A stretch of DNA of 55,219 bases from an uncultured virus (IMG/VR IMGVR_UViG_3300035498_000616). Its lineage: Duplodnaviria > Heunggongvirae > Uroviricota > Caudoviricetes. Positions within the stretch are counted from its first letter, which is position 1. Each line of letters starts with the position of its first letter. The notes below the pieces were generated by a model that saw only the letters and a list, made by a program, of their open reading frames with translations, did not search any database and was not told where the DNA came from. Location of the stretch: IMG/VR virus record IMGVR_UViG_3300035498_000616, one strand, 5' to 3'. This document shows positions 36,148 to 53,503 of the stretch, piece after piece. Both the position numbers and the translations under genes were made by a program.

Positions 36148-38315
36148 TACATTAACCGTTTAACAGTATCATTATATGGATTTCCATCGTGAATCTAAGC
36201 GATTTCAATTTGAGTACGCTTCTATTCGATATCGACCATTTGTTCTTTGTAAGTTTTATCAGTATTAGCTTTAAGCATTTCAACTTTATATTCAAGCTGC
36301 ATTTTCTGTTGCTCTAACTGCATCTTCTGTTGATCCATTTGTTCGAGTTTTTTCTGAGCTTGCTCAAGCTGTTTTTGTAATTGCTAAGCCTACTGCATTG
36401 TTTCTTCCAACTTTTGATTAAGTTGTTTGATCTAGTCATTTTCTTCCTTCTGGAATTTCATTGCTTTCTTAACTTTGTATTTGAGGTCGGTCAAACTTTT
36501 ACTAGTTAACACTTCAATCAAAATATCTGCTGGAAGTAATTGACTCTTAATTAATTCCGGAACTATCTATTTAATTGTTTGAATATCCTACATTACTTCG
36601 GTACTAGATGTAATCTAAATATCGTAGTCAGTAACAGTAAAATGTTCAGGTAATGCTGTAAATATTTTTTGATATTTACCCATTACAATAGTTCCAGTTA
36701 ATCCATTTTTGTAAACTATTTTAGCCTAATTAATACAGTCAAGTAATAATTCACAAACTACTAAATCCATATGTTGATATAGATGTTTAGTAATAATAAA
36801 TGAATTATTAACTCCTTGCTAAATATTAGTAACTGCATCTCTCTGCTGAATACCATTTAATCGTTCACGGAATACACCACTGATAGATGATACTGTATTC
36901 TCCAAACTTTGGATTGCAACTTCAATAGCTTGAATAGCCTATGCTTTTAAAGTATCATCAAAACCGTTAAAGATAGTATTCATTGGAGCATTACCGTTAT
37001 CATTTCTACCTTCTTGAGTTGTATCAATTAATTGTAAACCAGCCTTCTTATAAGCAATCCATTTCTGAATTCTCTCTGGCCATTTAACTCCAAGATTAGC
37101 TGGAATTAATGAAACATCAATAATAGAACCTGATGTACCACTATTTCCAATTAAATTATTTTTATAATAGATTAATAAATCATATTCATCTTGTAAATGC
37201 ATACATTTAAGCATTAACGAATACGGTCTTGAAGTACGATTTAAAAAGTAAACACCGTTTACTGAAATAGTACAATCGTTAGGATTATCATGTGTACGAA
37301 TTACATTCTAATCAATTCCTCGTAAGATATAAAACTCTTCTCCAATTCTTACAGTAGTGTAACGTTGTAATACAAAATCATCATCAGCTTGAATCCATTC
37401 TACTTCATAAACTGGAACAAGCTATCTTCTGAAATTTAAATCAGAAGGGTGTCCAGGAAGCGGATCGTCTTCATCATAAGATTCATCAACTGCTACACAG
37501 CTATCTCCATAGACTCTTCTGTATCGAGAACTAGCTATATCTTCATCCCATCTATCTTTAAACTATTTAATATCCTCACGTTTCATTTCTTTACCATATC
37601 TAGCTAAAATATCATCTTTATCTAACCAGCGTCTGATAACACATTTTCTAGAATTTTTAACGTAAGGAGAATTAGGATTAGTTTCAATAAATGTATTTCT
37701 CGGATCAAGAACTTCCAAGCATACATTTGTATTTGAAGAAGATGGATGTGCCTAGAAGAAACTATATCCTGTAATTAAAATATCACGTAATAATGTAGTA
37801 ACTTTAGTTACAACATCCATGTCTCTTGACTACAAGAAATATTCAATAATATTCTAAGCGGCAATTTCATATTGAGATGTAAATGATTCATCTACATCCT
37901 AAATAATCTAGTCAAGTTGTCTTTTAATAGATTTATCAGTAATATCTTTTCCATCAATAAATGACAATAAAGAATTACTTAAATGGTCTTTTAAAAATTT
38001 AACAATTTCACCAGTTATTTTTAATTGTTTTTCTCTATTGATATTAGAGATTGTATCATGATCTTTGCAATATACTTTCGGAATAATAGGAACATTTAAG
38101 TATTCTCCAACTAAAGCGTCAAAGTGTTTCTTTAACAAAGGAGTAAATGTTACTGATGTTGGACTACCAATTCCGTAATTTTCTTCTAGATATTTGAACT
38201 ATTCTGGATCTCGCTTTCCGTCATAATAGTTATATGCCTTCTGCAAGTCATATTTCTCTACTACAAGATCCGAAATAATTTCATCAGTTTTGTCTATCAT
38301 TTCCTAATTAGTCAT
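36147..38315 (-). CDS. Portal protein, 722 aa (TAG=Gln)
   Basis: MTN(TAG)EMIDKTDEII...KAYNYYDGKRDPE(TAG)FKYLEENYGIGSP...HFDALVGE...ISGVFRERLNGIQQRDAVTN; one frame; typical position next to the terminase. Confidence 0.85.
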
Positions 38316-38589
38316 AACAATAATTCTACTACGGTGGAAGTTTAGTAGCTCTCGTAAAAGCAACTCTGTTTAATCCTCTCGTTCTTATTTCCTTTTTAAT
38401 AAATTCAACAAATTCATCGTCTGGCAAATCAGCCATGATACTTATCGGACTTTCAGAGTGATCTAAGTTAATGTCAACTTTATAACCAACTGGATCTAGA
38501 TTAGTAATTCGAATACCTCCGATGAATTCAACGTGGTAAACCTGTTTCATATAATCTAGGATCACTTGTTTCAATTCTGAATGGGTCAT
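38308..38589 (-). CDS. Hypothetical protein, ~93 aa
   Basis: Track ORF 38329..38589 ends in TAG-TAG; read-through reaches TAA at 38308. Confidence 0.6.
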
Positions 38590-40819
38590 CGTAATTAGTA
38601 TAATTAAATAACTGTTGTGGATTTTTCCTTGGAATTACACCAAACCGTTTATATCCATTTTCGTCTATATAATAACCAAAGTCTTCGAATTCTGCAACTT
38701 CTTTTTCAACTATTATTGGTTGTCTTCCTGATAATTCCTAATCAGCTAATTCCATCATACCAAAAGCTGCAACAATATCAAATTTGCCTTTGTTCTCGTC
38801 ATTATATCCAATTAATTGTTCAATGACTTCTTCAAACCATATTGTGTGACAATAGTCTTCGACAAAATCCGCGGTTAAATCGGTATGCTATTCAATAATT
38901 GTTTTAGTTGCAGGAGTTCCATATTGTTTACTTGTACCATGTTTAATATCAGTTAAAGTAGCCCTAGGTCTTTTCATAAAGAAACTAAGACCGTTATTCT
39001 CTCTTGCCCATGTTACAAATCCTACACGTGTAGCTTCTATATTAATTTTACAATTATAATATCTAGCTAAACACATTGCAATTTTATAAGCATCTCGAAT
39101 ATTATTTGGTCTATCTTTATATACGCAGACTATCTATGGTTCATTTAATCCAAATGCACGTCTTTTAATAATCATACAGAAATCAGAAGGATCTCGTGTT
39201 TCTTTTGAAGTTTGACTAGCTCCAATATCAATTCCGTCAATACCTGCAACGTAAAGATTATTCATTTCTTTATAAACAGGCATTTCGAATTTTTCGCCAT
39301 TCTCTTCAGCACGCTATTTTTCTTTCTGTAATTTTTCTTTGTATAAATCAGACCAAACGGGATGTTCAAGTATCTGGACTTTACCGTTCGAGTTGGGAAT
39401 CCACTTAAATCCATCAATATTTTCAATACTATGTTTGTTATTTTTATAAAAATAATCTATATAGCCTTTTTCAGGTCTAGGTCCTTGTTTCTAGACTTTA
39501 ATTAAAGAAAGCTGTTCAGCTAATTTAATTTTGTTAAATTTATTTACACCTTCCAATGTAAAAGCTTCTTCTGCGTTCCAACAACGCTCAGCACATTTCT
39601 TTAAATATTCTTCTGGAATAGCTAATAGATTATTACGTTCTTCTTGTAATACTTTTTTATACTCTTCTGTATTACATACTCCTCTATGATCCATAAATTC
39701 TGGATTCAAAGATTGTAAATAATACGGAATGAAGAAACCACTTTCGATAGTTCCTCCATCATTAGTATAATTGTGTCTAAAGGGTAATATTTTAAATGCT
39801 CTAGGATTATAATATATCTTTTTTAATCCTTCCAAAGGTGATCCGAAGTCTCCTCCTGTACCACCAAATAACATTGTACCTCTTGGCATACCCTAGACTT
39901 CACACAACTCTTGTCCTTGTACAACAGCTGTAGTTAGTTGAGGCCAGGAACCAGCCTCATCAAAGATTAACAAATCAACACGGTCACCACGAATGTTAGA
40001 TGCCTTAGATCCGTTAATTCCAATAGTTTCAGATTGAAATCCTGTATCTTCAAACGCACCATTGATTTTAACTTGTCTTCCTGATTTTTTTCTTAAATCC
40101 TAGTCAATAAGTTTAAGTTTAAAAAATCCTCCATCAGTGTGAGTATTTAAAAAGGTTAGTGCATGATTAAATTTGTTAAATGTAGTATTTAAGAATTTAT
40201 CATTATAACAAGTTATCATTGTTCTACTCTTACGTATAACAGAATAAAGTCTAGCTGCTAAAGATGCATTTATTTCTGAAAATCCGATTGAACGAGCTTT
40301 CATTAAAGCTGCATGTTTATGTAATACTCTTGCTAATTGTAAGTAGTGAAAGAACGTATAATGAGATGCGAAGAAAATTGGGAAATCATCTTTAGTACCT
40401 TCACCTGATGCTTTATTACTATCAACTAAAGGTAACTAATAATAATTTAAGAAAAAATAGTTATCGCCCGTAATAGTATAACCGTGCGACGTCATACCAT
40501 ATTTACATTTTTCATATTCCTATTTCCAGAAATCGCGATAACGTTTACTATCTCTAGGATAAGGACAATAGTGACCAGTCTTTTTGAAAGCTTCTCTAGC
40601 TTCCGTAAACCAATTTGGATCGAAGTCTAATCCTTTAGTCTCGTTAATAGGCTTATAACCTGTAATTTCATATGAAAGGTTTGCATCAAAAAAGTCAACT
40701 TTCTCATCTTTTTTAATATCCCATTCATTAGTTCTCATAGACTAAACAATCTTTCTAGCTTCTTCAATATCCTATTGTTCTTCTTTGTTCTCGATTTCTT
40801 TAATAATGTCATTAATCAT
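38528..40819 (-). CDS. terL: Terminase large subunit, 763 aa (TAG=Gln)
   Basis: Track ORFs 40520, 40100, 39491 and 38888 share one frame; ATPase motifs MKARSIGFS, RGDRVDLLIFDEAG, LFGGTGG; nuclease motifs YVAGIDGID, NIEATR, FDIVAAF. Confidence 0.92.
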
Positions 40820-41376
40820 AAGTCTCCAGGATCAAAACCATCAACAGCTCCACCTCTAACGGTAGACTGTTCAGTTAATTCTTTTTTAACCTGATCTTCA
40901 AGAGTTACTAACTCTTCGTGTACTTTGTGTAAGGTAGACATTTCTTTCATAACTTTCTCAGCTTGAAAGATAGGTTTACCATTTGCATCCCTTTCATTTA
41001 AATCTACAATAGTATCGAAATAATCAATAAACTAATCAGCCGCTTTCTTTGCAGCTTCTAATAATTTAATTGATTTATTCGAATCTTGTAACGCTCTGTA
41101 TTTTCTACAAGCTTCTCTAAATATGGGATCGTTATATTCAGATTCAGAGAGACCTGAATCTATTAAAGATTCCGAATGTCTCTCTCCTTCTGAATATTGT
41201 GAATAAGGACTCTTCCAATCAATAGCTAAATACATATAAGTTAACTCTTTCATAGCTCTATCCTTACTCTTAGTTTTATCACGTTTAATTAGATCGTGAA
41301 ATTCTTTTATTAATAACAATTCTGGTTCATTGATTTCGAGTTCTTTAGTTATATTATTAAAACTAAATACGTTCAT
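40816..41376 (-). CDS. Putative terminase small subunit, 186 aa (TAG=Gln)
   Basis: Directly upstream of terL with ATGA overlap; track ORF 41032..41376 continues through TAG to TGA 40816. Confidence 0.55.
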
Positions 41377-45667: not shown

Positions 45668-45991
45668 TTAATTTCTAGTATCAGACTAAGAGCTTGTTCT
45701 TTCATAATCATCAATATTACTTATTAATCCTCGTAAATAATCTAGATTATCATAAATACTGGTGATTGTCTCATTCGTCTTTTTATTCTTAAAATAATAT
45801 TTAACTTCAGATTCTTCTCTTTCTTCTTTGGTTTTAAAGAGTTGTTTCCAGTGTTCTAATTTCTCATCTACTTCATCTTGATTACATTCTTCAAGAATTT
45901 TCATATTCGGATTATTAATAATTTTATTATATTTTCTCCGAAGATTTGTGACGACAATAACGTCACTTCCATTTAATACAATTGCTGCCAT
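45668..45991 (-). CDS. Hypothetical protein, ~107 aa
   Basis: Likely start MAAIVLNG at 45991, just after the tRNA 3' end; TAG at 45686 read through to TAA 45668. Confidence 0.6.
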
Positions 45992-45995
45992 AATG

Positions 45996-46033
45996 TTGGG
46001 ACACTGGGACTCGAACCCAGAACTAAAGGTTTT
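45996..46033 (-). tRNA. 3' exon of an intron-split amber suppressor tRNA (CUA, Gln-type)
   Basis: AAA-ACCTT-TAGTT-CTGGG-TTCGAGT-CCCAG-TGTCCCA-A: rest of the anticodon arm, variable loop, perfect T arm and acceptor 3' strand. Confidence 0.9.
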
Positions 46034-47002
46034 CATTTTAACACCATTTTATGGATTAGACTATCGCATCCAGTCCTAAGACCAGTCTCTCTGTTTAGTC
46101 GTTCACGCTGCAATCACGCTTGCGCCTTGTCACTCATTCGCTTCCAAGTCAATTAAGAGAGATTCTACTTAAAGATTATTTATTATCCTTTAAGCATCCA
46201 ATAATTTAAAATAATAGTTATTCCAAAATTTATCAATATTTCTTAATAATGTATTTCTACAGGTTTTAAGTATTTTAGTTTTTACTAAGCCACTATTTAT
46301 TAAATAATTGCAGCATTCCGATATTGTTCCAAATCTTTGTATTTCATTCATATCCTTATCATATTGAATTACATATTTTTGATTAGATTTTGCTGGAACA
46401 ATTTGTTTAACTACAGATAATTTAATATTTAATAATTCTGCAACTTTCTTTTGGTTTTTTAATTCAGCGTATTTTGACATAACTAGTTCAGATAATTCTG
46501 TACTTATTTCGTATTTTGATTCTGTTATCTTTTGATTACGAGAACCATAAGTATCAGTTTGACTATGACAGTTTGGACATAAGAATCTTAGATTTTCAAT
46601 TCTATTATCATTATTTTCTCCGTTTATATGGTCAAGTTCTAATGATAATGTTTTTCCATTCCATTCTGTTATTCCACATATTGAACATTTATAAGGAAGT
46701 AATTGCTGTCTTATAATAGTCTTTCTTAATACTGTTCTAGCATGTTTTGATCCTTTGCAAAATAATTTGTCAGGATCTACAACTTTCTTTTCTGAAATTG
46801 CTGACTTACCTCTAAAATCTTTTCCTGATAAATTTAAATCTGTCATTCGTTGTTTAACTTGTGAATACCCCCAAGAGTTTCCTTTAGTGGTATATCCAAG
46901 TTTAAATAAAACTTCTGATATATTCAAACTTGACTTAACTAAGTTTGAAAATTCATTATCACTAAGTTTATAAATTCTATTTTCCATTATTTTAAATTTT
47001 TA
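46034..47002 (-). mobile_element. Group I self-splicing intron (969 nt) inside the suppressor tRNA anticodon, carrying an HNH ORF
   Basis: 5' exon ends in U and the intron ends in G; core after the ORF shows P3 TCTCTCT/AGAGAGA, P7 GACTA/TAGTC (CAGCGTGAACGACTA ... ATGCGATAGTC), P8 CTGGTC-TTAG-GACTGG, P9 CCAT-AAA-ATGG. Confidence 0.88.
46190..46987 (-). CDS. HNH homing endonuclease (intron-encoded), 265 aa
   Basis: CSICG...LELDHINGENNDNRIENLRFLCPNCHSQT HNH/Zn motif; NUMOD1-like C-terminus (VIQYDKDMNEIQRFGTISEC); no TAG codons. Confidence 0.9.
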   Translation of the reverse strand: MENRIYKLSDNEFSNLVKSSLNISEVLFKLGYTTKGNSWGYSQVKQRMTDLNLSGKDFRGKSAISEKKVVDPDKLFCKGSKHARTVLRKTIIRQQLLPYKCSICGITEWNGKTLSLELDHINGENNDNRIENLRFLCPNCHSQTDTYGSRNQKITESKYEISTELSELVMSKYAELKNQKKVAELLNIKLSVVKQIVPAKSNQKYVIQYDKDMNEIQRFGTISECCNYLINSGLVKTKILKTCRNTLLRNIDKFWNNYYFKLLDA

Positions 47003-47037
47003 AGAGACCTCTGTGCTAACCATTACACCATATCCCA
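47003..47037 (-). tRNA. 5' exon of an intron-split amber suppressor tRNA (CUA, Gln-type)
   Basis: TGGGATA-TG-GTG-TAATGGTTAG-CAC-A-GAGGT-CTCT; joining to the 3' exon gives a 73-nt cloverleaf with loop CT-CTA-AA. Confidence 0.9.
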
Positions 47038-51065: not shown

Positions 51066-51131
51066 TTACTAAACAGAGGAAGCCGAAAATCTGTATAAAA
51101 GAGTAGGTAAAATTTTTAAAACCAACAAACA

Positions 51132-53342: not shown

Positions 53343-53414
53343 GACTCTGTAGTTTCAATGGAAGAACGTAGGACTGATAAGCCTAAAATTAGGGTTCGAA
53401 TCCCTACAGAGTCA
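53343..53414 (+). tRNA. tRNA-Ile (GAT)
   Basis: GACTCTG/CAGAGTC acceptor stem, D arm, TAGG/CCTA anticodon stem with loop CT-GAT-AA (one A.G mismatch at the stem end), TAGGG-TTCGAAT-CCCTA T arm. Confidence 0.8.
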
Positions 53415-53443
53415 CTTGTTTTGTTTGTTGGTTAATTTGGTTA

Positions 53444-53503
53444 AGGATTGTGGTGTAAATGGAAGCACGCTCGTAAATCTAGGTTCGAATCCTAGCAATC
53501 CTA
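53444..53503 (+). ncRNA. tRNA-like RNA lacking the anticodon arm
   Basis: AGGATTG/CAATCCT acceptor stem, GTGT-AAATGGAA-GCAC D arm, CTAGG-TTCGAAT-CCTAG T arm; only 10 nt (GCTCGTAAAT) between the D and T arms. Confidence 0.75.

What the first reader, a model, noticed from the sequence alone, without database searches (positions are those of the whole stretch)
45996..47037. Amber-suppressor tRNA split inside its anticodon by a group I intron: splicing may gate the phage's genetic-code switch
Seen: two tRNA halves on the minus strand, 969 nt apart. The 5' exon (47037-47003) ends GAGGT-CTCT and the 3' exon (46033-45996) begins AAA-ACCTT. Joining them gives a 73-nt cloverleaf with anticodon loop CU-CUA-AA, so the anticodon is CUA (reads UAG), and the intron sits between U35 and A36. 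The insert follows a U, ends in G and has group I P3/P7/P8/P9 elements. Established: U1-A72 with G2-C71/G3-C70 is typical of tRNA-Gln; recoded crAss-like phages often carry CUA suppressor tRNAs; group I introns occur in bacterial tRNA anticodon loops (e.g. cyanobacterial tRNA-Leu UAA). Inference: the anticodon needed to translate the TAG-laden late genes exists only after self-splicing, so splicing could act as a timer or checkpoint for the code switch. It would also lock a selfish intron into an essential gene and hide the tRNA from ordinary scans. I do not know of a described example in a suppressor tRNA.
Basis: partly seen in the sequence, partly recalled or inferred. Interest (0 to 1): 0.95.

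Follow-up and report, generated by a model that had tools for sequence, protein, structure and literature searches.

The report
Intron-split amber suppressor tRNA in phage
A large crAss-like gut phage that reads the stop codon TAG as glutamine in its virion genes has its TAG-reading tRNA gene cut inside the anticodon by a mobile self-splicing-type intron carrying its own endonuclease gene, which hides the gene from tRNA finders but looks like a selfish passenger, not a timer.

Summary
On the minus strand, 47037-47003 and 46033-45996 are the halves of one tRNA. They are separated by a 969-nt insert that follows U35 and ends in G. Joining them gives a cloverleaf with anticodon CUA.

The insert has a group I core: P2 to P9 with the P3/P7 pseudoknot. 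In 37 distinct relatives 98.9% of cells pair and 18 of 41 pairs show compensatory changes. A TAG-free HNH endonuclease ORF sits in the loop of an extended P1. Rfam scores the core only 10.7 bits.

The window is TAG-recoded: terminase, portal and tail genes open only with TAG as sense, and Gln is the commonest residue at TAG sites in relatives. No intact CUA tRNA was found in 67.5 kb of this phage, nor in three complete recoded relatives that carry the split gene.

Relatives also have intron-less CUA tRNAs; one is identical to a sister allele's ligated exons. So the intron is optional and mobile. The proposed timer or checkpoint role has no support.

Eight paper searches found no group I intron described in a suppressor tRNA. 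This scan has noted the same thing in at least 8 other genomes. Splicing itself is untested.

The parts
47003..47037 (-). tRNA 5' exon: acceptor 5' strand, D arm, anticodon-stem 5' strand GAGGT, loop nt C32 U33 C34 U35
   Evidence: homologous 5' exons in 40 loci
46034..47002 (-). group I-type intron, 969 nt; first nt U, last nt G (omega G, 46034)
47003..47005 (-). P1 5' strand: exon U33 C34 U35, with U35 as the splice-site U
   Evidence: the MFE duplex pairs TCT with GGA in the window and in 23 of 29 distinct alleles. Both are invariant, so there is no covariation; inferred
46197..46199 (-). candidate internal guide sequence GGA (G46199 opposite U35 as the wobble). The two U just 5' of it (46201-46200) could pair A36 A37 as P10. 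The GGA overlaps the Leu and Asp codons (TTG GAT) near the end of the HNH ORF
   Evidence: (GGA invariant in 37 of 37); inferred
46984..46998 (-). P1 extension, 5' strand (15 nt; includes the ORF start codon 46987-46985)
   Evidence: duplex -13.6 kcal/mol against -5.0 +/- 2.1 for shuffles; 0 of 100 shuffles and 0 of 48 interior ORF windows reach it
46203..46217 (-). P1 extension, 3' strand (inside the 3' end of the HNH ORF)
46190..46987 (-). HNH homing-endonuclease ORF, 265 aa, no TAG codon, stop TAA; lies in the loop of the extended P1
   Evidence: Pfam HNH 24.8 bits, cut-off 21.4; phrog_10822, E 1.7e-44
46167..46195 (-). P2 hairpin (46195-46185 / 46176-46167) with one bulge and a conserved 8-nt loop
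   Evidence: helix 1: 10 pairs, 5 with changes on both sides, 100% of cells paired
46156..46162 (-). P3 5' strand
   Evidence: helix 2: 7 pairs, 5 compensatory, 99.2% paired
46126..46148 (-). P4 (46148-45 / 46129-26) enclosing a small variable P5 (46141-39 / 46134-32; weak in the window)
   Evidence: helices 3 and 4
46105..46125 (-). P6 (46125-22 / 46108-05 and 46119-18 / 46111-10)
   Evidence: helix 5: 5 of 6 pairs invariant, 1 compensatory
46096..46100 (-). P7 5' strand within an R-like element; invariant G-C pair 46100/46059
   Evidence: helix 6; one search aligns this stretch to GACUAAA of RF00028
46086..46092 (-). P3 3' strand (pseudoknot with P7)
   Evidence: helix 2
46070..46085 (-). 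P8 hairpin
   Evidence: helix 7: 2 compensatory pairs, 98.2% paired
46059..46063 (-). P7 3' strand, preceded by J8/7 (46069-46064)
   Evidence: helix 6
46044..46054 (-). P9 hairpin. Present only in the window's subtype; the stem differs and stays paired in 6 alleles read by eye
   Evidence: 3' tails listed
45996..46033 (-). tRNA 3' exon: A36 A37 A38, anticodon-stem 3' strand ACCTT, variable loop, T arm, acceptor 3' strand, discriminator A

Best explanation
A mobile group I intron carrying an HNH homing-endonuclease gene has inserted into the anticodon loop of the phage's amber-suppressor tRNA gene, between U35 and A36.

The gene heads the minus-strand block that runs into the TAG-rich packaging and virion genes. 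The next gene may start 4 nt after the tRNA.

Inferred mechanism: the primary transcript folds into the ribozyme. The loop nucleotides U33-C34-U35 pair with a GGA guide just 5' of P2, with U35 opposite G as the wobble. A guanosine cofactor cleaves after U35. The terminal G (46034) then docks, and the exons are ligated. The product is a 73-nt tRNA with loop CUCUAAA and anticodon CUA, most likely charged with Gln. Only then can TAG codons in terminase, portal and tail genes be read.

The endonuclease ORF lies in the loop of an extended P1 and has no TAG, so it can be made without suppression. Its last codons overlap the guide. Translation and splicing of one transcript should therefore exclude each other.

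The intron is a selfish passenger. It spreads by homing into intron-less CUA tRNA genes of co-infecting relatives. The host phage tolerates it because it splices. Any delay of the code switch would be a by-product.

Shown here: the anatomy, covariation of the ribozyme core and of the exons, the recoding, intron-less alleles, and the lack of another CUA tRNA. Inferred: splicing activity, P1/P10 pairing, Gln charging and homing.
For: Anatomy and cloverleaf.

Ribozyme core, on 37 distinct sequences (alignment A1). With my P2, P3 (pseudoknot), P4, P5, P6, P7 and P8, 98.9% of 1517 cells pair. 18 of 41 pairs change on both sides. 0 of 500 shuffles reach this. Slid controls pair 32.9-48.0%. An independent MFE fold of the core reproduces P2, P3, P4, P6, P8 and P9.

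Rfam on the 196-nt core alone lists a single family, RF00028 Intron_gpI. P3, J3/4 and the GACUAAA element are in register.

Splice sites: U at -1 in 40 of 40 loci; G at omega in 33 of 40 (one hand correction).

Junction confirmed by intron-less alleles. 31 of 32 loci carry an uninterrupted CUCUAAA loop. L149 is 73/73 identical to the ligated exons of sister allele L001, and four more are 72/73. 5 of 5 intron-less alleles tested score 57.5-66.5 bits as tRNA.

Exons are under tRNA selection: about 20 complementary anticodon-stem types.

P1: TCT pairs with GGA at the base of the MFE duplex in 23 of 29 alleles. The window's extension helix beats all controls.

HNH ORF. It is intact at 265-304 aa in 40 of 40 loci.

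Recoding: ORF coverage rises from 62% to 89% with TAG as sense, and the longest ORF from 818 to 2112 aa. TerL, portal and tail genes carry TAG.

Gln: at the 11 TAG sites of TerL in 18 relatives, of 198 cells Q 57, TAG 41, E 34; background Q is 2.7%.

No other CUA tRNA: none in the window plus G001, 67.5 kb. None in the complete recoded relatives PV686213, G002 and G003.
Against: No experiment shows splicing. Contigs from RNA libraries cover the unspliced 5' junction and show no spliced joint. That is uninformative, because DNA may be present in those libraries and contigs do not capture a 73-nt tRNA.

Rfam's group I model scores only 10.7 bits (E 1.8; gathering 50) and gives nothing at gathering score.

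The folding energy of the core is not unusual (z -1.1).

P1 is only 3 bp. Both strands are invariant, and the GGA is also constrained by the codons it overlaps (TTG GAT), so the guide is not proven. The P1 extension is only modestly better than controls across the family: mean z -1.7, and it beats all interior ORF windows in 14 of 29 alleles.

7 of 40 loci have A, not G, at the omega position.

The rest of this phage's genome (perhaps 150-190 kb) was not available. An intact CUA tRNA elsewhere is therefore not excluded.
Confidence: 0.85

Rival explanations
1. Evolved timer or checkpoint. Splicing of the only suppressor tRNA is slow or regulated. It sets the time at which TAG-laden late genes become translatable, and selection maintains the intron for that role.
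For: The split gene is the only CUA tRNA found in three complete recoded relatives and in the 67.5 kb of this phage that could be seen. It lies upstream of the late block and in the same direction: 6 kb before TerL in the window, about 15 kb in G002 and about 10 kb in G003. The endonuclease ORF overlaps the guide and, in the other subtype, the core. Translation could therefore hold back splicing.
Against: Close relatives carry the same tRNA without the intron, one identical in its exons. So the intron is dispensable. All 40 copies keep an intact homing-endonuclease ORF, as expected of an element kept by mobility. The same intron sits in tRNAs with very different bodies in at least two phage lineages, about 98-kb and 150-190-kb genomes. 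That fits horizontal spread, not a co-evolved regulator. No kinetic or expression data exist.
Confidence: 0.1
2. Dead gene. The insertion inactivated the tRNA, because the intron no longer splices or never did. TAG is read by another suppressor, encoded outside the window or supplied by the host.
For: Splicing is untested. Only part of the genome was available; CheckV puts G001 at 33% complete. 7 of 40 alleles lack omega G. Rfam does not recognise the intron at its threshold.
Against: Compensatory changes keep both the ribozyme helices and the anticodon stem split across the intron paired in dozens of diverged alleles. A dead locus would not show this. Complete recoded relatives have no other CUA tRNA. 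U at -1 is present in 40 of 40 loci and omega G in 33 of 40.
Confidence: 0.04
3. Another anticodon. The mature loop is CUCUUAA (anticodon CUU, Lys), with the insert placed after position 38, as ARAGORN's intron mode suggests; or the terminal G is retained (CUG).
For: The 5' junction reads CTCT-TAA in the window. One RNA-library contig joins a near-identical 5' half to a different 3' half with a CTT loop (record 13), so Lys-like relatives of this tRNA body exist.
Against: ARAGORN's Lys model is 88 nt long with a mismatched anticodon stem. Under that junction the intron would end in A, and loop positions 36-38 would differ among alleles (UAA, UAG, UUU, AGA). The U/G junction gives CUCUAAA or CUCUAAC in 38 of 40 loci (one hand correction) and matches the intron-less alleles exactly. 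K is a minority residue at TAG sites: 13 of 198 cells against Q 57.
Confidence: 0.01

Closest known systems
Group I introns in anticodon loops of bacterial and plastid tRNA genes: tRNA-Leu(UAA), fMet, Arg and Ile2, subgroup IC3, extended to 21 settings in bacteria by Williams 2020 (bioRxiv 10.1101/2020.01.27.920355; whole text read; its table and figures are images that I could not see)
   Same: A self-splicing-type intron sits inside the 7-nt anticodon loop, bounded by U at -1 and G at omega. The anticodon is completed only by exon ligation. The exons keep the anticodon stem. Rfam's model is weak on such introns: Williams notes that none of its 12 seeds is bacterial.
   Different: The host gene is a phage stop-codon suppressor (CUA), not a sense tRNA of a bacterium or plastid. 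The site is after the 4th loop nucleotide (35/36); the classical Leu intron is after the 3rd. It is about 1 kb long with an HNH endonuclease ORF in L1, whereas most bacterial tRNA introns are about 250 nt and lack an ORF. The subgroup was not determined here. Williams's table may list a setting at this position; I could not see it.
[quoted passage not shown]
   Same: A tRNA anticodon-loop group I intron that carries a homing endonuclease whose natural target is the intron-less tRNA gene.
   Different: A different tRNA and a cyanobacterial host. The endonuclease belongs to another family than HNH (recalled, not tested).
Phage group I introns with homing endonucleases in protein-coding genes, including the many introns of Delta and Zeta crAss-like phages (Yutin 2021, PMC7886860, passages; Hausner 2014, PMC3984707, passages)
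   Same: A phage-borne, mobile group I intron with an endonuclease ORF placed in a peripheral loop. The window's TerL relatives lie on 150-193-kb contigs, the size range of the intron-rich Zeta group.
   Different: Hausner 2014 states that all phage introns observed to that date were in protein-coding genes despite the many phage tRNA genes. This one is in a tRNA.
Introns in tRNA genes of Lak megaphages (Devoto 2019, PMC6784885, passages)
   Same: Phage tRNA genes interrupted by introns, in a TAG-recoded phage; found by comparing genes with and without the insert.
   Different: Those introns are described as enigmatic. The passages read name no intron class. They are reported in tRNA-Tyr(GTA) and tRNA-Thr(TGT), not in the suppressor, as far as the passages read show; supplementary table 6 was not read.
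Uninterrupted suppressor tRNA(CUA) genes of recoded crAss-like and other gut phages (Yutin 2021; Borges 2021 preprint 10.1101/2021.08.26.457843, passages)
   Same: The same product and role: a phage-encoded tRNA reading TAG, most likely as Gln, for late genes. 31 such intron-less alleles were found among relatives.
   Different: Here the gene is split, so it is invisible to ARAGORN and to the Rfam tRNA model.

Membership tests
Group I intron | Core of paired segments in the order P3-P4-P5-P6-P7-P3'-P8-P7', with P3 and P7 forming a pseudoknot | tested here: met
   on 37 distinct sequences: 98.9% of cells paired; 18 of 41 pairs compensatory; 0 of 500 shuffles reach this; slid controls 33-48%. 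The MFE fold recovers the nested helices.
Group I intron | U as the last exon nucleotide, in a G-U wobble with an internal guide sequence (P1) | tested here: inconclusive
   U at -1 in 40 of 40 loci. The candidate guide GGA is invariant in 37 of 37 and pairs with TCT in the MFE duplex of 23 of 29 alleles. There are only 3 bp, no covariation is possible, and the GGA is also constrained by coding.
Group I intron | G as the last intron nucleotide (omega G) | tested here: met
   G at 46034 in the window. G in 33 of 40 family loci and A in 7 of 40 (one hand correction).
Group I intron | Guanosine-binding G-C pair in P7, flanked by conserved R-like and S-like sequence (which pair, and the consensus, are recalled) | tested here: met
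   The pair at columns 125/167 is G-C in 37 of 37. Rfam aligns the window's GACUAAA to the same element of RF00028.
Group I intron | Match to the curated covariance model RF00028 at its gathering score. This is a detection aid, not a defining property. | tested here: not met
   No hit at gathering score or at E<=10 on 1351 nt. On the core alone: 10.7 bits, E 1.8, against a gathering score of 50; it is the only family listed. 16 distant relatives also gave no hit.
Group I intron | Guanosine- and Mg-dependent self-splicing with exon ligation | not testable with these tools
   Needs in vitro transcription. RNA-library contigs were uninformative.
tRNA, amber suppressor (anticodon CUA) | Cloverleaf with a 7-nt anticodon loop, U33, and anticodon CUA after ligation | tested here: met
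   ARAGORN on the exons joined in a script. The Rfam tRNA model could not be run on the join. Intron-less relatives score 57.5-66.5 bits (5 of 5).
tRNA, amber suppressor (anticodon CUA) | The genome uses TAG as a sense codon | tested here: met
   ORF coverage 62% to 89%. TerL has 11 TAG and portal 21. Q is the top residue at TAG sites.
tRNA-Gln identity | U1-A72, G2-C71, G3-C70, G73 and other GlnRS determinants (E. coli rules, recalled) | tested here: inconclusive
   The window has U1-A72, G2-C71, G3-C70 and G10, but discriminator A. L001 has C2-G71 and U3-A70. No extra similarity to phage tRNA-Gln(UUG).
HNH homing endonuclease | HNH nuclease motif; ORF inside an intron; intact across copies | tested here: met
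   Pfam PF01844, 24.8 bits against a cut-off of 21.4. phrog_10822, E 1.7e-44. ORFs of 265-304 aa in 40 of 40 loci. Cleavage of the intron-less allele was not tested. No solved relative by sequence.
Splicing-gated regulatory switch | The intron is retained by selection for timing; splicing is regulated or rate-limiting | tested here: not met
   The intron is optional among close relatives. Kinetics cannot be tested here.

The most novel reading that the evidence does not exclude
In phages whose only amber suppressor is split, splicing is the rate-limiting step that sets when TAG becomes readable. Ribosomes translating the intron's own TAG-free endonuclease ORF cover the guide sequence and hold splicing back. 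On this reading the selfish element has become the clock of the early-to-late genetic-code switch. A side branch is not excluded either: the clade with A at the omega position may be a natural group I intron that ligates exons without a terminal G.
Probability: 0.1. Interest if true: 0.9.

Novelty: new variant of a known kind. Interest (0 to 1): 0.6.

Why it matters
Two studies of crAss-like phages say the same thing: some clearly recoded genomes have no detectable suppressor tRNA. They suggest a very divergent tRNA or a host one (Yutin 2021, PMC7886860; Zeta crAss-like phages 2025, PMC12386605; passages read).

An intron-split gene is a concrete and checkable answer. In three complete TAG-recoded genomes the only CUA tRNA I could find is split by this intron, and neither ARAGORN nor the Rfam tRNA model sees it.

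It also extends the known range of group I introns to a phage tRNA gene. A 2014 review said no such case was known (PMC3984707). And it makes a ribozyme reaction a required step in a viral genetic-code change.

In practice, annotation pipelines for recoded phages should search for split tRNAs. The roughly 40 alleles found here give an alignment from which a detector could be built.

The idea that splicing times the switch is now testable, because natural intron-containing and intron-less alleles of the same tRNA exist.

Tried and rejected
- Rfam at gathering score on the window, at E<=10 on 1351 nt, and on 16 distant loci: no group I hit.
- Own assembly: not held. I used the near-identical record G001 instead.
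- ARAGORN on 110,262 trial joins of 5' and 3' flanks: too permissive to pick splice sites. Abandoned in favour of a stem-partner rule.
- The first two versions of that rule picked false G-U-rich partners in several loci. The Watson-Crick-weighted version still needed one hand correction (L166).
- Three loci (L172, L181, L192) lacked my P7' pattern and were dropped without further study. L168 is cut before its 5' exon and was also dropped.
- RNA-library contigs of 4 runs: they cover parts of the intron and the unspliced 5' junction and show no spliced joint. They cannot tell RNA from DNA, so they count neither for nor against splicing.
- Promoter and terminator scan: 19 promoter-like sites against 15.2 expected. 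Not informative.
- HNH ORF against solved structures: 0 hits.
- Similarity of the suppressor body to the phage's own tRNA-Gln(UUG): no signal. One of my three joins in that script (L179) was made at the wrong G and should be ignored.
- Folding energy of the core: z -1.1, not significant on its own.
- TerL against annotated phages: relatives are only 21-29% identical apart from MT835539. I therefore used 18 of the 50 closer IMG/VR loci, one or two per identity class, leaving out near-duplicates and three partial ones.
- The CUU (Lys) reading was considered and rejected (see rivals).
- A local 5' hairpin in the other subtype and J2/3 UAGAA were each considered as the guide, and rejected in favour of GGA.
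Full report
**What is there**

Read on the minus strand, 47037-47003 is the 5' half of a tRNA: acceptor strand, D arm, the stem strand GAGGT, then CTCT. The 3' half is 46033-45996: AAA, the complementary strand ACCTT, a 5-nt variable loop, the T arm, the acceptor strand and discriminator A. Between them lie 969 nt (47002-46034). This insert follows a U and ends in G.

ARAGORN run normally finds only tRNA-Ile(GAT) at 53343-53415. Rfam at gathering score finds no tRNA here. When the halves are joined inside a script, ARAGORN draws a complete cloverleaf with a 7-nt loop and anticodon CTA. With introns allowed, ARAGORN forces a canonical 37/38 intron and returns an 88-nt 'tRNA-Lys(ctt)' with a mismatched stem. 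I treat that as an artefact, for the reasons given under the rivals below.

**The insert**

It holds a 265-aa ORF (46987-46190) with an HNH motif. Pfam gives 24.8 bits against a cut-off of 21.4, and phrog_10822 gives E 1.7e-44. The ORF contains no TAG.

The last about 170 nt (46204-46034) carry the RNA core. I found relatives in two ways:
- A named faecal phage record (MT835539.1, 76% identical over the whole tRNA and intron) and a complete Crassvirales genome (PV686213.1, Bohxovirus).
- Pattern scans of IMG/VR.

The second scan gave 41 loci. Three lacked my P7' pattern and one is cut short, and these were dropped. With the window and the two named records, 40 loci could be analysed.

On an alignment of the 37 distinct cores (A1) I wrote down P2, P3, P4, P5, P6, P7 and P8, with P3 crossing P7 as a pseudoknot. 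The count was:
- 98.9% of 1517 cells form standard pairs.
- 18 of 41 pairs change on both sides.
- None of 500 shuffles reaches the observed values.
- Sliding the 3' partners by 1-3 columns drops pairing to 33-48%.

Every helix contributes. P2 has 5 compensatory pairs, P3 has 5, P4 has 2, P5 has 2, and P6, P7 and P8 have 1, 1 and 2. An independent MFE fold of the window's core returns P2, P3, P4, P6, P8 and P9, although the energy itself is unremarkable (z -1.1).

P9 exists only in the window's subtype. There the stem sequence differs among six alleles and stays paired (tails printed, read by eye).

This order of helices and this pseudoknot are the group I core. The G-C pair in P7 that I take to be the guanosine site (recalled) is invariant in 37 of 37.

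Rfam's RF00028 does not reach its threshold. Given only the 196-nt core, it is nevertheless the single family returned, at 10.7 bits and E 1.8. It aligns P3, J3/4 and the GACUAAA element in register. Williams 2020 (whole text read) notes that none of that model's 12 seeds is bacterial, and uses thresholds of 18-20 bits.

**Splice sites**

Across the 40 loci the 5' junction is CTCT in 39 and TTCT in 1. I then looked for the best partner of the 5-nt stem strand downstream of P7', weighting Watson-Crick pairs, and assumed three loop nucleotides before that partner. The nucleotide just before the inferred 3' exon is then G in 32 loci and A in 8. One of the 8 (L166) is a mis-pick that I corrected by homology with the window's tail. 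The final count is G in 33 of 40 and A in 7 of 40. The loop after ligation is CUCUAAA or CUCUAAC.

Intron-less alleles give independent proof of the junction. A scan for the window's D-arm block followed by an uninterrupted loop gave 32 loci, of which 31 are intron-less CUA tRNAs. L149 is 73/73 identical to the ligated exons of the sister allele L001, and four more are 72/73. Five of five such alleles tested score 57.5-66.5 bits on Rfam's tRNA model. No intron-less copy of the window's own allele was found.

**P1 and the place of the ORF**

Just 5' of P2 every allele has GGA (37 of 37). It can pair with U33-C34-U35, putting U35 opposite G. The two U before it could pair with A36 and A37 as P10.

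RNAduplex between the exon end plus intron leader and the 39 nt before P2 puts TCT:GGA at the base of the best duplex in 23 of 29 distinct alleles. Above it sits a 10-20-bp helix between the leader and the 3' end of the ORF. The ORF therefore sits in the loop of an extended P1.

In the window this helix (46998-46984 with 46217-46203) is far better than the controls: -13.6 kcal/mol against -5.0 +/- 2.1, with 0 of 100 shuffles and 0 of 48 interior ORF windows reaching it. Across the family the support is modest: mean z -1.7, and all interior windows are beaten in 14 of 29 alleles.

The GGA also overlaps the Leu and Asp codons (TTG GAT) near the end of the ORF, and both strands are invariant. The guide assignment is therefore an inference.

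**Context**

- With TAG read as sense, stop-to-stop ORF coverage rises from 62% to 89%. The longest ORF rises from 818 to 2112 aa. TGA as sense gives 69%.
- The opened genes are terminase large subunit (38531-40831, 11 TAG), portal (36150-38369, 21 TAG) and tail proteins.
- The tRNA lies 6 kb upstream of TerL on the same strand.
- A possible start codon of the next gene (ATG 45991) lies 4 nt after the discriminator.
- The first two larger genes downstream have no TAG.
- At the 11 TAG sites of TerL, 18 relatives (198 cells) show Q 57, TAG 41, E 34, K 13, H 12, gaps 12 and others 29. The background Q frequency is 2.7%.

That agrees with Yutin 2021, which calls TAG 'most likely glutamine' (passages). 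TerL relatives sit on 150-193-kb contigs, the size of the intron-rich Zeta group of that paper. Assigning this phage to that group is my inference.

**Is it the only suppressor?**

The window's own assembly is not held. G001 (62,416 nt) matches window 1-50089 at 99.994% and adds 12.3 kb. ARAGORN finds no tRNA in it. In 67.5 kb, then, there is no intact CUA tRNA, but most of the genome is unseen.

Three complete relatives that carry the split gene were scanned whole:
- PV686213 (98 kb, circular; ORF coverage 62% to 87% with TAG as sense).
- G002 (166 kb, terminal repeats; 67% to 92%).
- G003 (151 kb; 48% to 87%).

None has an intact CUA tRNA. Their TerL genes carry only TAG as in-frame stops (G002 and G003). 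The deposited annotation of PV686213 lists Met, Glu, two Ser and Cys tRNAs and no suppressor.

**How it most likely works, and the rivals**

The best reading is a mobile group I intron with its homing endonuclease, living in the suppressor tRNA gene. The phage tolerates it because it splices. The CUA anticodon, and with it late-gene translation, then depends on the ribozyme.

The timer idea is not supported:
- The intron is optional among close relatives.
- All 40 copies keep an intact endonuclease ORF of 265-304 aa.
- The same intron sits in tRNAs with about 20 different anticodon stems and quite different acceptor stems, in at least two phage lineages.

This is the pattern of an element spreading horizontally through a conserved target, the CUCUAA(A/C) loop.

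A dead-gene reading is contradicted by the compensatory changes in both ribozyme and exons.

The CUU (Lys) reading fails for three reasons. It needs an intron ending in A. It gives inconsistent loops among alleles. And it disagrees with the intron-less alleles.

**Literature**

Eight searches found no paper describing a group I intron in a suppressor tRNA.
- Hausner 2014 (passages) states that all phage introns known then were in protein-coding genes.
- Devoto 2019 (passages) reports 'enigmatic' introns in Lak phage tRNA-Tyr and tRNA-Thr.
- Williams 2020 lists 21 settings in bacterial tRNAs. Its table is an image and its supplements are closed, so I cannot say whether this loop position occurs there.
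- Yutin 2021 and the 2025 Zeta paper both note recoded genomes with no detectable suppressor tRNA.

The library lacks most subscription journals.

**Earlier notes of this scan**

A word search returned 8 earlier findings on other genomes, all headed 'Intron-split amber suppressor tRNA in phage'. Seven reject or see no evidence for a timer; one (e1-7844483) states no verdict on it. I reached the selfish-passenger reading from my own calls before looking. One note led me to the Williams preprint.

**What remains open**

- Splicing itself is untested.
- The 7 of 40 alleles with A at the omega position are unexplained. They include the only CUA tRNA candidate of the complete genome PV686213.
- The intron's subgroup was not determined.
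- The rest of this phage's genome was not seen.

Noticed in passing
L002 (PV686213.1), L183, L156, L171, L173, L190, L177; 3' end of the intron: In 7 of 40 loci the nucleotide before the 3' exon is A, not G (tails GGTTTAACA, GGTTTAATA, GGCTAGCTA). P7 and its G-C pair are unchanged. These alleles have several different, still complementary anticodon stems. In the complete recoded genome PV686213 this is the only CUA tRNA candidate. Either they are splicing-defective, or they are natural group I introns without omega G.
   Followed up: partly
window 53444-53503 (+): Rfam tRNA hit (43.4 bits), 28 nt after tRNA-Ile(GAT). Its acceptor, D and T arms are intact, but only about 10 nt stand where the anticodon arm and variable loop should be. 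Its D arm resembles that of the suppressor.
   Followed up: no
window 51073-51109 (+): Rfam DUF805b RNA motif, 49.6 bits (gathering score 35.6).
   Followed up: no
L158, L164, L169, L174, L175, L180, L184, L196 (3' exons): A subfamily of the split CUA tRNAs has an odd T loop (GGCAGCA or GGAGGCA in place of TTCGAAT). ARAGORN does not recognise these even after joining. Two features hide them from tRNA finders: the intron and the unusual body.
   Followed up: partly
G004 (contig of L162 and L169, 162,493 nt): One contig holds two different intron-split CUA tRNAs and two separate TerL-like regions. It may be a chimeric or concatenated assembly, or a genome with two suppressors.
   Followed up: no
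window 46999-47032, run X3 record 13: A 506-nt contig from an RNA library ends in a near-identical copy of the 5' tRNA half, joined directly to a different 3' half with a CTT (Lys) loop. This is an uninterrupted relative of this tRNA body with a sense anticodon, from some other organism or phage.
   Followed up: no
window 45989-45991 (-): A possible start codon (ATG) of the next gene lies 4 nt after the tRNA's discriminator, and the arrangement is conserved in L001. The tRNA is probably cut out of a polycistronic transcript.
   Followed up: no
L035, L031, L012, L038, L078, L060 and others: More distant relatives of the same core (the P4-P6-P7 stretch) occur on many viral contigs outside tRNA genes, two copies on some contigs. 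Rfam recognises none of the 16 tried.
   Followed up: partly
MT835539.1 30009-34319 (H35): The TerL match in the sister phage comes in 3 pieces spread over 4.3 kb, which suggests an intron or intein in its terminase gene.
   Followed up: no
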